Shown in pieces: positions 32,868 to 36,231 of a DNA stretch of 64,000 bases. Positions within the stretch are counted from its first letter, which is position 1. Each line of letters opens with the position of its first letter. This DNA comes from Promethearchaeota archaeon (GTDB lineage: Archaea > Asgardarchaeota > Lokiarchaeia > Sigyniarchaeales > SOKP01): positions 11,977 to 75,976 of the forward strand of contig JAEOTS010000122.1 in assembly GCA_016839745.1 (NCBI GenBank), given 5' to 3'. The notes beneath the pieces are model-generated. The model made no database searches. It was given only the letters and a program-made list of their open reading frames with translations, and was not told the DNA's origin. A program made the position numbers and the translations under genes.

Positions 32868-33977
32868 TTAAATTCTTCTCCTACGCAAAATTAAGTAAAC
32901 AACTAATACGATTACTCCTATAACTGTAAGTACAATAATCAAGATTAAAAAATTAAGCTCGACCATGAAAATATCTTCGTTCAATAAATCTAGCGATCCA
33001 AGGATTTGTAAAATTTTGAAAGCAGAATAGGATGTACTAATAGAAGAGAGTCTTTGATTGATATCTTCATTCCAATCACTAAAACCACCATCGAGAAAAC
33101 TTTGATGTTCTAATACCCAATTGGAAGTTGCGACTCTATTTAATTCAGTCTCGTCTATTAATCTAATTCCTTCAACGCAGAGGTATGTACTACTTAATAA
33201 TGGAGTTTTAGCGTATAAATCAGGTAAATAACCACCGTAGTGTTCAAGATTATTAGAGTCTCCGATATAATGTGATTTAAAGTAATTTAAAGTTGCAGTT
33301 TGATTAGCTAAATCATTTATTGAACCTAATTCACTAAATAAATTAACCGCAAAATATGTAGTAGTCAATGTAGATGATAAAGATTGGTTTCCTCCATACC
33401 CTCCGTCTGTATTATTGCACGATAATACCCAAGTTTTATGGATTGTTTCATTTTCAACCGGTTCATCGATTATGGTAAATATATTATATATATAGTAAGT
33501 TGAAGCCATGTTTGCAGCATTAGATATGTTTGTAGGACTAAAGCCACCTCCGATCTGAATGGTGTCATTTATGTACGTATAAATTTGATCACGTAAAACT
33601 GAATTTAAAGAAGTTTCTAGGGATTCCAGCATGTTTAATGTTTCTAAAAGATAGTATATTTGGTAGATATCAATTTCTCCTGTCTCAAACATAGTTCGAA
33701 TTTGTTCTTGTAAGTAAGCCTTTAAACCAGTTATACCAACGCTTCTAATCTCCTCAAATAAGACTTCAATAAGATAAGCATTATAAAAGTCCAAAATTTC
33801 TATTGCGTTAGCTGTGTCTTGGGGTGATATGCCAAAACTTTCGTTTGCTTTTTGATTTTCGTAAATAAAATCGACTAAATGACTCTGACGGGTTTTTGCT
33901 AATGCTATTGGTGTAATACTTAGCATTAAAGTAATTAATAATAAAGCAAATGTTAAATTCCGAACTCTGTTTTTCAA
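32868..33977 (-). CDS. Exported, membrane-anchored prenyltransferase/squalene-cyclase (PFTB) repeat protein
   Basis: Signal peptide; repeated W/Y..s.Q..DGGF/Y...ST.TY.A units; C-terminal TM helix followed by RRRRI. Confidence 0.7.
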   Translation of the reverse strand: MKNRVRNLTFALLLITLMLSITPIALAKTRQSHLVDFIYENQKANESFGISPQDTANAIEILDFYNAYLIEVLFEEIRSVGITGLKAYLQEQIRTMFETGEIDIYQIYYLLETLNMLESLETSLNSVLRDQIYTYINDTIQIGGGFSPTNISNAANMASTYYIYNIFTIIDEPVENETIHKTWVLSCNNTDGGYGGNQSLSSTLTTTYFAVNLFSELGSINDLANQTATLNYFKSHYIGDSNNLEHYGGYLPDLYAKTPLLSSTYLCVEGIRLIDETELNRVATSNWVLEHQSFLDGGFSDWNEDINQRLSSISTSYSAFKILQILGSLDLLNEDIFMVELNFLILIIVLTVIGVIVLVVYLILRRRRI

Positions 33978-34123
33978 TTAAAAAAAAACCCCAATCTGGT
34001 TTTAACTAAATTTTAATTTTTTAAATTTAACGTGTAATTAAAAATTAACGATCTTTTGAGTTTTTAGTTAGATTATCATGTAAACTATAATAAAAATTAG
34101 AAATAAATTGATCAAAGTTTGAT

Positions 34124-35650
34124 CTAAAAAATATCGCTAATATTCTTATATAACGCAGCACTATTGGATTGAAATTCTTCGTGGGTTACAAATAGATTTT
34201 GAAAGCTCGGCAAGCTCCCGAGTATACTAGCGCCATTAAATATAGCAAACTGTAAGTTTTCTGGTACGAAGAATCTTACTACCTCTTCCGATGACTCGTA
34301 AAAACCAGAAAATTCTCTAGCAGGTGGAGTATTCTTAACGATCTCAGGAGGTACCTCTGGTATCTCTGTTAATGGAAAACTTTTTCCACAATAAGGACAA
34401 AAAATCGAATCTTCATCTTCAACTTTCTTTTTGCAATTAGGGCAAATTCTCTTTCCTTTTTCACTTTTAGAATTTGTGCCTAGTTTAATGCTTCCAATTG
34501 AAAGCTCGGGTAAAATCATTCTACCATTACAAGACGGACAGAACTCTTTACCATCAGTTAGATCTACTAACGTACCACAATGTGGACAAGTATCTTCCTT
34601 CTTCTGTGATTTTTCTTTTAATTTCATTTTTTGCCTTTCTTCCCGTGAGGCTTTCACAATCTTAGGTTTTGGTATTTTTCCCAGCTGTGGGATTAATTGT
34701 GCTAGTTCAGATCGTAGTCTCTCTTCAAATCCAGAATATGAAAGATTTCCACCCGATATCATAATATGTGAAAGAAGATCGCTCCAATAATATTTGTCAA
34801 TTCCTTGCAAGCTATTTATAACCGCTTGTGGAATGTTAAGGATATTATACCCTAATAAGTTAGGTTTAAATAATACTTCTGGTGCTTCATGGAAGATATA
34901 ATTTGGTATATTAATATTAGATCCATCTGGCATTGTAAAACTAAAACTATCATCTAACTTTGGAGGGTGTTCAGGATCTAAAGCGAAAAAGCAGTTTTTT
35001 TCTTTGATATCTTTAATTATTTCGTCGACTGCACTTGATTCAATATTAATACCTTCTCTCATAAGTAAATTCTTTAAATGTTGATTTACATCTGTACCAG
35101 CTAAAGTTAATTTTTGCACCGATTGATCAACAATTTCTCCACTCAGAATGGGGCATACCCAAGTGATTCCATCTCCACTCTCTATAACTGTACCAGTTGT
35201 TAACCCTACACTAAATAAAGACAGTATAGGGGTAGGAATCATTATTAAACTTCTGACTTTATGGGTTTCATATAAAACTCGAGCAATATATTCCTTAGTC
35301 TCCCGCTGGACAAACGGAGGTTCAGTGTATAGCACTGGATAATTAGTAAGATTTTCAATTCTTAATAGCGAATAGAAAATATAATTTAAGATTTCATAAT
35401 AATCGTTCCAATCCATTATTGCACCCCGTTCGATAGGGTGTTTTATTTTTAGAACTCCTCGCATTTTTGAAGCGTCTGATCCGATATATATATTTCGGGC
35501 GCCAACATCAACCATTACAGCTTTATATTTTTCAGTACCGGTGATGGTGGGGAAAACAAACCTAGGACTAGGCTCTCCCGCGAAACCTATCTTAGTGTAG
35601 GCTGAACCAATGTCGACGATAATCGGGGTTCCCGGTAATGGTACTGCCAT
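34124..35650 (-). CDS. Actin-related protein with an inserted double zinc ribbon
   Basis: IVDIGSAYTKIGFAGE..PRFVFP, PIERG, LYTEPP, TTGTVIESGDG, IKEK.C, MPDG, APEVLFKP, ISGGN, GASILGSLPSFQ; insertion carries four CxxC pairs. Confidence 0.92.
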   Translation of the reverse strand: MAVPLPGTPIIVDIGSAYTKIGFAGEPSPRFVFPTITGTEKYKAVMVDVGARNIYIGSDASKMRGVLKIKHPIERGAIMDWNDYYEILNYIFYSLLRIENLTNYPVLYTEPPFVQRETKEYIARVLYETHKVRSLIMIPTPILSLFSVGLTTGTVIESGDGITWVCPILSGEIVDQSVQKLTLAGTDVNQHLKNLLMREGINIESSAVDEIIKDIKEKNCFFALDPEHPPKLDDSFSFTMPDGSNINIPNYIFHEAPEVLFKPNLLGYNILNIPQAVINSLQGIDKYYWSDLLSHIMISGGNLSYSGFEERLRSELAQLIPQLGKIPKPKIVKASREERQKMKLKEKSQKKEDTCPHCGTLVDLTDGKEFCPSCNGRMILPELSIGSIKLGTNSKSEKGKRICPNCKKKVEDEDSIFCPYCGKSFPLTEIPEVPPEIVKNTPPAREFSGFYESSEEVVRFFVPENLQFAIFNGASILGSLPSFQNLFVTHEEFQSNSAALYKNISDIF

Positions 35651-35808
35651 GCTTGATCAATTAAATTTTTTAAAGGTTTATGTTCTTTTATATAAATCTC
35701 TAAATTTAAGTATTAGTACAATAATATAATAAAATGATTTTCCTTAATTAAATAATTTTTCCAAAAGAGGAAAGATAAGTTAGAATATTTTAATTACCAA
35801 GATCCATA

Positions 35809-36231
35809 TTAATCGATTTTTAAAGATTTTTCTAGCTTCTTTTCAATTCCTTCTAATTCGGTTAGGAGATTTTTATAAGTTTTCAGTAAATACTTGCCCC
35901 AATCGTTTAGTTTAACCCATCCCCCTCCACCAAGACCTCCTTTTCTAGTTTCTACAGGTGTTTTTCCTGATCTTTCTTTTATTTTATTTAAAATGTTCCA
36001 CGCATATTTGTATGAATAACCGCACTCTTTTGCTGCTTTTGTTAAAGATTTGGGCTCGTTGTTATTAGCGTCATCAATACATTCAAGTAAATTAGCCCAT
36101 CCTGACCCTAAAATATTTTTACGACCCTCATCTTGAAATTCTAGCCAGAATTTGATTCCAAAACTAATTTTACCTTTTAATTTTTCGATATTAGAGTTAT
36201 CCTCCAATTTTTCACTAGAAGGTTCTTCCAT
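35809..36231 (-). CDS. ModE-like winged-helix transcriptional regulator
   Basis: ILGSG..LL..ID, SLTKAAKECGYSYKYAW, RKGG.GGGG..L...GK.LL. Confidence 0.85.
   Translation of the reverse strand: MEEPSSEKLEDNSNIEKLKGKISFGIKFWLEFQDEGRKNILGSGWANLLECIDDANNNEPKSLTKAAKECGYSYKYAWNILNKIKERSGKTPVETRKGGLGGGGWVKLNDWGKYLLKTYKNLLTELEGIEKKLEKSLKID

What the first reader, a model, noticed from the sequence alone, without database searches (positions are those of the whole stretch)
34124..35650. Actin-related protein with a double zinc-ribbon insert and altered hydrolysis residues
Seen: a complete actin fold with a full-length D-loop-equivalent (TGTEKYKAVMVDVGARNIYIG). About 130 aa are inserted between the RLRSELAQL helix and the VRFFVPE strand (roughly 34285-34680), carrying CPHC/CPSC and CPNC/CPYC (34388-34588) plus basic and Pro-rich linkers. 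Aligned to actin from recall, Q137 is T (IPTPILSL), H161 is W (GDGITWVCP), D154 is E and H73 is R. Established: Q137 and H161 support ATP hydrolysis, and Arp2/Arp3 also have insertions in this subdomain-3 loop. Inference: not the filament-forming Lokiactin but a hydrolysis-poor nucleator, capper or adaptor whose zinc ribbons recruit partners, membranes or nucleic acid.
Basis: partly seen in the sequence, partly recalled or inferred. Interest (0 to 1): 0.8.

Follow-up and report, generated by a model that had tools for sequence, protein, structure and literature searches.

The report
Asgard actin relative with zinc-ribbon insert
This is a real, strongly conserved gene of one order of Loki-type Asgard archaea for an actin-like protein that lacks actin's key ATP-splitting residue and carries two zinc-binding modules on flexible tethers in a surface loop. 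Its job is untested, but it is probably a low-copy accessory or anchoring factor rather than a filament builder.

Summary
Window 34124-35650 (-) encodes a 508-aa actin-fold protein. A 131-aa insert with four invariant CxxC pairs sits between the equivalents of actin K326 and K328. Actin Q137, H161, D154 and H73 read T, W, E and R.

It is not a misassembly: over 115 homologues have the same design, and an independent contig spans the insert without a difference.

Insert-bearing orthologues occur in all four families of one order, which includes Ca. Lokiarchaeum ossiferum. I did not find them in 7 genomes of sister orders or about 220 genomes of other Asgard classes.

They form their own clade (support 100), apart from Lokiactin. 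The L. ossiferum orthologue is UYP44711.1, an unnamed 'ARP' in a published tree. I found no paper describing the insert.

Clade-wide features are loss of Q137, H73R and the insert position. H161W is specific to this family, and the ribbon number is 1 or 2.

In published L. ossiferum data the orthologue is about 47-fold less abundant than Lokiactin and is not among the proteins enriched by Lokiactin co-immunoprecipitation.

Function is inferred: a nucleotide-locked adaptor, most likely at filament ends.

This scan found the same family before in many other genomes.

The parts
34124..35650 (-). Whole gene for the zinc-ribbon actin-related protein (508 aa plus TAG stop)
34673..35650 (-). Actin core, N-terminal part (residues 1-326, aligning to actin residues 8-327 over query residues 10-326)
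   Evidence: Pfam Actin 9-339; phmmer to 1yag and 9wc4; AF2 pLDDT mostly above 90
35480..35542 (-). D-loop equivalent (residues 37-57), full length, hydrophobic tip VMV
35426..35428 (-). R75, the equivalent of actin H73; R throughout the clade
35231..35233 (-). T140, the equivalent of actin Q137; S/T/A throughout the clade
35180..35182 (-). E157, the equivalent of actin D154
35159..35161 (-). W164, the equivalent of actin H161; invariant W in this family only
34598..34672 (-). Insert, part 1 (residues 327-351): conserved entry motif LPQLGxIPxP, then a Lys-rich linker predicted disordered
34517..34597 (-). Zinc ribbon 1 (residues 352-378; CPHC...CPSC)
   Evidence: pLDDT about 73
34454..34516 (-). 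Linker 2 (residues 379-399), variable, predicted disordered
34376..34453 (-). Zinc ribbon 2 (residues 400-425; CPNC...CPYC)
34280..34375 (-). Pro-rich linker 3 and conserved A-x-E-F return segment (residues 426-457)
34127..34279 (-). Actin core, C-terminal part (residues 458-508; aligns from actin 327 to the C-terminal region, matched 327-367)
35690..35697 (-). TATA-like TTTATATA about 43 nt before the ATG. This is a consensus look-alike only, in an AT-rich genome
32868..33977 (-). Conserved downstream neighbour: a prenyltransferase-like alpha/alpha-toroid protein with signal peptide, C-terminal membrane helix and basic tail
35809..36231 (-). Conserved upstream neighbour: a 140-aa winged-helix protein like the ModE N-terminal domain

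Best explanation
The gene encodes a lineage-specific actin-related protein that binds nucleotide but does not run actin's polymerisation-coupled ATPase cycle. It works as a low-copy structural adaptor of the Asgard actin cytoskeleton rather than as a filament builder. The actin core supplies actin-type docking surfaces: a D-loop on the pointed face and an intact groove on the barbed face. These would let it sit on or at the end of a Lokiactin filament. The 131-aa insert leaves the core at the K326/K328-equivalent loop of subdomain 3, next to the 322-325 longitudinal contact. It presents two zinc ribbons on disordered tethers that tie the bound filament end to a partner not yet identified. Shown here: the architecture, its conservation, the residue changes, the taxonomic range and the separate clade. 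Shown in a published data set: protein-level expression of the orthologue at about 1/47 of Lokiactin. Inferred: slow or absent hydrolysis, binding to Lokiactin, action at filament ends, and the partner-recruiting role of the ribbons.
For: The core is a complete actin fold with high model confidence. The phosphate loops and adenine pocket are kept (D13, G15, K20, G159, G161, G300/G301). Q137 is replaced in every orthologue and H161 is W in all 115 members of this family. The nucleotide-site columns are the best conserved set (mean score 3.09 against 2.56 overall). The D-loop keeps actin's length, and the groove residues are 70-81% similar across the clade and to Lokiactin. The ribbons are conserved (66% identity, 8 invariant Cys) while the linkers are not (42%) and are predicted disordered. 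That is the pattern of tethered binding modules. K326 and K328 contact tropomyosin on the filament surface (abstracts of PMC5902318 and PMC13316180), so the exit point is solvent-exposed in a filament. The L. ossiferum orthologue (my assignment to GNAMCCOK_01005) was detected in 16/16 proteome columns at mean log2 16.12 against 21.69 for Lokiactin. That level fits a substoichiometric regulator. It is also transcribed at a level below Lokiactin (PMC9834061). It is found throughout the order under strong purifying selection.
Against: No binding to Lokiactin has been shown. In the stored Lokiactin Co-IP table (sorted by ratio, kept down to log2 -1.06) the orthologue does not appear. The paper lists profilin, gelsolins and an ARF GTPase as enriched, with no ARP among them. 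The filament-contact sets are no better conserved than the core average, and no single face stands out. The ribbons are generic DZR-type modules with no known partner. The conserved neighbours are a surface protein and a winged-helix protein, not cytoskeletal genes.
Confidence: 0.4

Rival explanations
1. It forms its own homopolymer, a second and minor actin-like filament system, with the zinc ribbons displayed on the outside of that filament.
For: Hallmark elements of both faces are kept: the D-loop, the groove, and a plug that is hydrophobic and conserved within the clade (LLGYN.M.I). The insert exits at a position that is solvent-exposed in F-actin.
Against: Q137 is lost in every orthologue, and H161 in most but not in L. 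ossiferum or part of family f32, so polymerisation-coupled hydrolysis is unlikely. Abundance is about 47-fold below Lokiactin. The subdomain-3 contact loops next to the insert are the least conserved interface set (mean 1.90; 93% of random sets score higher). Lateral-contact residues differ from those of Lokiactin.
Confidence: 0.15
2. It is a non-cytoskeletal scaffold, as nuclear Arp4 and Arp8 are in eukaryotes. In this reading a nucleotide-locked actin fold holds a partner helix in its groove, and the ribbons bind nucleic acid or another protein, possibly together with the adjacent winged-helix protein.
For: The catalytic residues are lost while nucleotide-binding residues are kept. It is not enriched with Lokiactin in the Co-IP. 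The ModE-like winged-helix neighbour is conserved in two families. Large insertions are typical of nuclear ARPs (from recall).
Against: The ribbons are neutral to acidic rather than basic. The basic linker of this family is replaced by acidic linkers in other families, so no nucleic-acid-binding surface is conserved. The full-length D-loop is kept.
Confidence: 0.2
3. It works with the downstream alpha/alpha-toroid surface protein, for example by positioning or anchoring it from the cytoplasmic side, independently of Lokiactin.
For: The toroid gene lies directly downstream on the same strand in 17 of 19 loci from all four families, while the rest of the synteny decays. The two genes are also adjacent in every genome listed in both searches, about two dozen. 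In L. ossiferum the toroid protein is about as abundant as Lokiactin (log2 21.46).
Against: The cytoplasmic tail of the toroid protein is only 5-7 basic residues. Related toroid proteins occur in another Asgard family that lacks this ARP. A roughly 40-fold abundance difference and an intergenic T-rich tract plus AT-rich box point to separate transcription.
Confidence: 0.1

Closest known systems
Ca. Lokiarchaeum ossiferum actin homologue UYP44711.1, one of three unnamed 'ARPs' in Rodrigues-Oliveira et al. 2022 (PMC9834061)
   Same: It is the orthologue. It is the best match in that genome (40% identity), and the published primer for UYP44711.1 lies inside it. It has the same insert position, entry motif, Q137 loss, H73R and downstream toroid gene.
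   Different: It is 499 aa with one zinc ribbon instead of two, an acidic linker and tail, and H161 kept. The paper reports only its place in a tree and its RT-qPCR signal, not the insert.
Lokiactin, the conserved Asgard actin (own copies P0122 and P0123; solved relative 9wc4 'HC1 actin')
   Same: It has the same fold, is 35-37% identical, gives the best solved match (2.3e-73), and has a D-loop and groove.
   Different: Lokiactin has no insert, is about 381 aa, keeps Q137, H161, H73 and D154, is found in all Asgard classes and is far more abundant. It forms a separate clade.
Arp3 of the Arp2/3 complex
   Same: Both are actin-fold proteins used as a template rather than as polymer. From recall, Arp3 has an insert in the same alphaK/beta15 loop. 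Daughter-filament actins dock on the barbed faces of the Arps (PMC9295785).
   Different: I found no ARPC2 or ARPC4 in this genome, though that search was uninformative. Arp2 and Arp3 keep the catalytic Q and H (recall). They have no zinc ribbons. Relatedness could not be tested because no eukaryotic sequences were available by reference.
Arp11 and Arp1 of dynactin
   Same: This is a precedent for an ARP that ends a short actin-like filament. Arp1 scores nearly as well as actin against this protein (231.8 against 236.8 bits), and some homologues are labelled 'centractin' by JGI.
   Different: There is no specific affinity: Lokiactin scores higher (250.6 bits). There is no dynactin context and no zinc ribbons.
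Nuclear ARPs with large insertions (Arp5, Arp8, Arp4)
   Same: They are nucleotide-bound actin folds with little or no hydrolysis that serve as structural modules, with insertions that contact partners (recall).
   Different: Their insertion sites and content differ, and their partners are chromatin remodellers absent from archaea. Not tested here.
DZR, double zinc ribbon (Pfam PF12773 and Zn_ribbon_3 PF13248)
   Same: The insert's two C-x2-C-x11-12-C-x2-C units match these models above their cut-offs. The nearest sequences outside the family are generic DZR proteins.
   Different: Here the pair is spliced into a loop of an actin fold. No function is known for DZR modules, so the match does not name a ligand.

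Membership tests
Actin family (Pfam PF00022) | Actin/ARP fold and sequence profile above the curated cut-off | tested here: met
   240.4 bits against a cut-off of 27. Foldseek TM to actin chains is about 0.9 when normalised on the target.
Lokiactin | Groups inside the Lokiactin clade | tested here: not met
   The ZnR clade has support 100 and the Lokiactin clade 96. An AU test rejects ZnR plus same-order Lokiactins, p 0.0002. The group was named after the tree had been seen.
Lokiactin | Keeps the residues that position the hydrolytic water (Q137, H161) and H73 | tested here: not met
   They read T/S, W and R in 115/115 family members. The genome's own Lokiactins keep Q, H and H.
Lokiactin | About 380 aa, uninterrupted, present in all Asgard classes | tested here: not met
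   508 aa with a 131-aa insert, and confined to one order among the genomes searched.
Arp2/Arp3 (Arp2/3 complex) | Accompanied by ARPC subunits | tested here: inconclusive
   PF05856 and PF04045 were not found in the genome (89% complete). The controls rang nowhere, so absence is not shown.
Arp2/Arp3 (Arp2/3 complex) | Phylogenetic grouping with eukaryotic Arp2 or Arp3 | not testable with these tools
   No eukaryotic ARP sequences could be brought in by reference. The published tree places the orthologue among 'ARPs' without naming a group.
Arp1 (centractin) | Closer to Arp1 than to actin | tested here: not met
   Arp1 scores 231.8 bits, yeast actin 236.8 and Hodarchaeal actin 250.6.
DZR / zinc ribbon (PF12773, PF13248) | Two pairs of CxxC per ribbon and a profile match above the cut-off | tested here: met
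   Zn_ribbon_3 scores 41.5 against 27 and DZR 29.5 against 27.3. The 8 Cys are invariant. Zinc binding itself was not tested.
WH2 / beta-thymosin motif (considered for the LKKT-like stretch in the probable P. syntrophicum and L. ossiferum orthologues) | Match to the Pfam WH2 or Thymosin profile | tested here: not met
   No hit at E up to 10 in the insert tails. The tail helices are modelled with only pLDDT 56-66. The resemblance is from recall only.
Nuclear-type scaffold ARPs (Arp4/Arp8-like) | Binds a partner helix (HSA-type) in a multiprotein complex | not testable with these tools
   No partner is known.

The most novel reading that the evidence does not exclude
The protein is a self-contained archaeal filament-end factor: an actin-fold template or cap whose tethered zinc ribbons anchor Lokiactin filament ends to a membrane or surface partner. 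In the probable P. syntrophicum and L. ossiferum orthologues, an LKKT-like basic helix followed by an acidic, aromatic tail might contribute. That would be an origin of ARP-based control of filament ends independent of the Arp2/3 complex and of capping protein.
Probability: 0.12. Interest if true: 0.8.

Novelty: new variant of a known kind. Interest (0 to 1): 0.55.

Why it matters
[quoted passage not shown] So far only profilins and gelsolins have been characterised; the 'ARPs' are names on a tree. This one is kept by an entire order, including L. ossiferum and probably P. syntrophicum, which are the cultured strains in which crawling motility and Lokiactin dynamics can now be observed. It has a design not described for any ARP: zinc ribbons spliced next to a filament-contact loop, with the catalytic glutamine gone. 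If it acts on filament ends, it would show that ARP-based control of actin arose more than once. If it does not, it is a clear case of an actin fold recruited as a nucleotide-locked scaffold in a prokaryote. Either answer is within reach, because the L. ossiferum orthologue is expressed in culture.

Tried and rejected
1. Misassembly of the insert: rejected. Over 115 homologues have the same length and design. A 1066-nt contig from another sample spans 34051-35116 with no difference.

2. Recent in-order duplicate of Lokiactin: rejected by the AU test.

3. Complex prediction of this protein with the genome's Lokiactin: the job was not folded because of a rule of the tool, so there is no result. 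I did not try another route.

4. Insert-only search of 1.8 billion representatives: it found only generic double-zinc-ribbon proteins and a few more actin+DZR proteins, with no lead to a ligand. The ESM Atlas by features gave the same, with scores no higher than 0.83.

5. WH2/thymosin reading of the LKKT-like stretch in sister-family orthologues: no Pfam hit, and a low-confidence model.

6. Test of which filament face is conserved: pointed 2.57, barbed 2.37, core mean 2.56, so no significant difference. Only the subdomain-3 loops next to the insert trend low. The residue sets came from my recall of F-actin structures.

7. ARPC2 and ARPC4 in the genome: nothing found, but the controls were silent too.

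8. Transcription in the environment: only small contigs in RNA libraries. X19 has 233 nt at 98% identity, and X20 has relatives at 85-94%. DNA carry-over is not excluded.

9. Literature: no paper combined Asgard, actin-related protein and zinc ribbon. Liu et al. 2021 is not held. I could not verify the Arp3 alphaK/beta15 insert from the papers I opened.

10. Co-distribution of the toroid neighbour with the ARP: not exclusive, because weaker relatives occur in another Asgard family.

Full report
**The observation**

The ORF at window 34124-35650 on the minus strand encodes 508 aa.
- Pfam finds Actin (3.6e-71). Between two actin pieces it finds zinc-ribbon models above their cut-offs: Zn_ribbon_3 at 41.5 bits and DZR at 29.5 bits.
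- The phmmer match to solved actins is split. Query 5-326 aligns to actin up to residue 327, and query 458-502 resumes at actin 327.
- About 131 residues (327-457, window 34280-34672) are therefore inserted between the equivalents of K326 and K328.
- The printed alignment to yeast actin gives Q137->T140, D154->E157, H161->W164 and H73->R75.
- The D-loop equivalent has the length of eukaryotic actin's D-loop.

**The gene is real and conserved**

A search of 5.8 billion proteins returned more than 120 homologues at 61-94% identity. Nearly all are 501-511 aa, and nearly all carry both Actin and zinc-ribbon domains.

In an alignment of 115 members:
- all eight Cys, W164 and R75 are invariant;
- position 140 is T or S;
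- E157 is present in 113;
- insert length varies only from 123 to 133 aa;
- identity to the query is 77% in the core, 66% in the ribbons and 42% in the linkers.

A 1066-nt contig from a marine-sediment sample, not flagged as the source of the window's DNA but from the same study as the flagged ones, spans the whole insert and both junctions with no difference.

**Structure**

An AlphaFold2 model built on 108 sequences has mean pLDDT 80.7.
- The core is mostly above 90.
- The ribbons are at about 71-74.
- Three linkers (333-348, 381-398, 428-445) are below 50.

The ribbons are thus folded beads on disordered tethers. Foldseek finds actin chains first.

**Taxonomic range**

The genome has five actin-family genes:
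- two ordinary Lokiactins of 381 aa that keep Q137, H161, H73 and D154;
- a 371-aa ARP;
- a divergent 398-aa ARP;
- this gene.

Among 301 Asgard genomes, matches that run into the insert occur in 68/68 genomes of the window's family and in the sister family. All other classes give only Lokiactin-type matches, covering query 5-326 in frames of about 385 aa.

Further searches filled in the picture.
- Insert-bearing orthologues are in all four families of the order.
- None was found in 7 genomes of the other orders of the class.
- One genome of the sister family (6.03 Mb, one contig) carries an exact match to the published primer for L. ossiferum UYP44711.1, inside its orthologue.
- Another (4.4 Mb, one contig) is probably P. 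syntrophicum MK-D1. That is my inference from size and kinship only.

**Family versus clade features**

Features shared by all orthologues:
- the insert position after an LPxLGPxP motif;
- H73->R;
- Q137->S/T/A;
- an acidic E-F/Y motif near the end of the insert.

Features that vary:
- the number of ribbons: one in L. ossiferum and family f32, two elsewhere;
- insert length, from 98 to 209 aa;
- linker charge;
- the H161 position: W here, H in L. ossiferum, S/T in the MK-D1 group, F/H/Y elsewhere;
- S14, which is E or Q outside this family.

Loss of Q137 is the clade trait.

**Phylogeny**

A tree of 64 Asgard actin-family proteins (381 columns, insert columns dropped as gappy) gives three clades: the insert-bearing proteins (SH-aLRT 100), Lokiactins of all classes (96), and the second ARP group (99). 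Their mutual order is unresolved.

An AU test rejects uniting the insert-bearing clade with the Lokiactins of the same order, at p 0.0002. Two caveats apply: I chose the group after seeing the tree, and the stem is long.

I could not include eukaryotic ARPs. The published tree places UYP44711.1 among 'ARPs'.

**Gene context**

Three genes travel together: a ModE-N-terminal-like winged-helix gene upstream, this gene, and a prenyltransferase-like alpha/alpha-toroid gene downstream.
- The toroid protein has a signal peptide, a C-terminal membrane helix and a short basic tail ending in RI.
- It is directly downstream on the same strand in 17 of 19 loci from all four families, although only 25-29% identical at that distance.
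- The two genes are adjacent in every genome listed in both searches, about two dozen.
- The wider synteny (FolD, a longin-like gene, a DRG-like GTPase) holds within the family and partly in L. ossiferum.
- Weaker toroid relatives exist in another Asgard family that lacks this ARP.

**Expression and interaction data from the literature**

In L. ossiferum all four actin homologues were detected by RT-qPCR, with Lokiactin severalfold higher (PMC9834061).

In Supplemental Table 2 of preprint 10.1101/2025.11.30.690169 I assigned the orthologue to GNAMCCOK_01005. The basis is that its neighbours' masses match the table: 31.95 against 31.93 kDa, and 41.90 against 41.88 kDa.

Mean log2 proteome intensities:

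| Protein | Locus tag | Mean log2 |
|---|---|---|
| This ARP's orthologue (16 of 16 columns) | GNAMCCOK_01005 | 16.12 |
| Lokiactin | GNAMCCOK_03343 | 21.69 |
| Toroid neighbour | GNAMCCOK_01004 | 21.46 |
| Winged-helix neighbour | GNAMCCOK_01006 | 16.59 |

The orthologue is therefore about 47-fold below Lokiactin.

The Lokiactin Co-IP sheet is sorted by ratio and held down to log2 -1.06. The ARP is not in it. The paper names profilin, five gelsolins and an ARF GTPase as enriched.

So the protein is made at a low level and was not seen to co-purify with Lokiactin under those conditions. The rows below -1.06 are not held, so it may have been quantified there or not detected at all.

**Mechanism**

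The nucleotide site is the best conserved set of columns, while the residue that positions the attacking water is gone. I infer nucleotide binding without actin-like hydrolysis.

The filament-contact elements are conserved at about the core average on both faces:

| Residue set | Mean score |
|---|---|
| Whole core | 2.56 |
| Pointed face | 2.57 |
| Barbed face | 2.37 |
| Groove | 2.72 |
| Subdomain-3 loops beside the insert | 1.90 |

I see no significant one-face signal. This only weakly echoes the 'cap' reading of earlier notes in this scan.

The insert exits between the K326 and K328 equivalents. In F-actin these residues touch tropomyosin on the filament surface, whereas residues 322-325 just before them take part in the longitudinal contact (my recall of F-actin structures). 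The insert would therefore be displayed outward, but close enough to the next subunit's docking site to hinder or replace it.

Together with the low copy number, this fits a substoichiometric end-binding or anchoring adaptor best. I put that at about 0.4. The Co-IP result and the non-cytoskeletal neighbours keep three rivals alive: a scaffold role, its own polymer, and a link to the surface protein.

**What I could not do**

The ribbons match only generic DZR modules. The LKKT-like stretch in sister-family orthologues has no profile support.

**Novelty**

The gene is in public databases, and its L. ossiferum orthologue appears unnamed in a published tree. My searches found no description of the insert or of the residue changes.

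This scan has met the same family in many other genomes, and earlier follow-ups reached the same identification. I reached mine before reading them.

Noticed in passing
window 32868-33977 (-); L073 (G309:C1:1223555-1224703): The conserved downstream neighbour is a secreted, C-terminally anchored prenyltransferase-like toroid protein. In the L. ossiferum proteome table it is about as abundant as Lokiactin (log2 21.46 against 21.69), so it may be a major surface protein. Its layout of a motif, a membrane helix and a basic ...RI tail recalls archaeosortase-type sorting signals (my recall).
   Followed up: partly
L001 (G000:C80) and L002 (G000:C190): The genome has two Lokiactin genes, 81% identical. 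The second sits on a longer branch (0.23 against 0.012). This is either a real paralogue pair or a second strain in a bin with 5.8% contamination.
   Followed up: no
L012/L018 residues about 440-500; L011 insert tail: Sister-family orthologues, including L. ossiferum and probably P. syntrophicum, carry a conserved basic helix ending in L(L/I)KKT, followed by an amphipathic helix and an acidic stretch with F/Y. By eye this recalls WH2-central-acidic regions. There is no profile support.
   Followed up: partly
window 35809-36231 (-): A 140-aa protein matches only the N-terminal winged-helix domain of ModE (E 8e-07), with no molybdate-binding part. It is kept upstream of the ARP in two families.
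   Followed up: partly
L042 (G301:C314) and L052 (G305:C23): Other orders of the same class have further long actin-fold frames (834 and 487 aa open frames, about 30-33% identical). These may be other fused or insert-bearing ARPs.
   Followed up: no
Supplemental Table 2 of 10.1101/2025.11.30.690169: GNAMCCOK_04085 (56.41 kDa) tops the L. ossiferum proteins in the held part of the Lokiactin Co-IP sheet (log2 ratio 4.53), above Lokiactin itself (4.44). I did not identify it; its mass does not match the ARP orthologue (55.64 kDa).
   Followed up: no
window 34046-34123 and 33978-34045 (-): After the ARP's TAG stop come T-rich tracts and then an AT-rich box before the TTG start of the toroid gene. 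This suggests separate transcription units despite the conserved adjacency.
   Followed up: no
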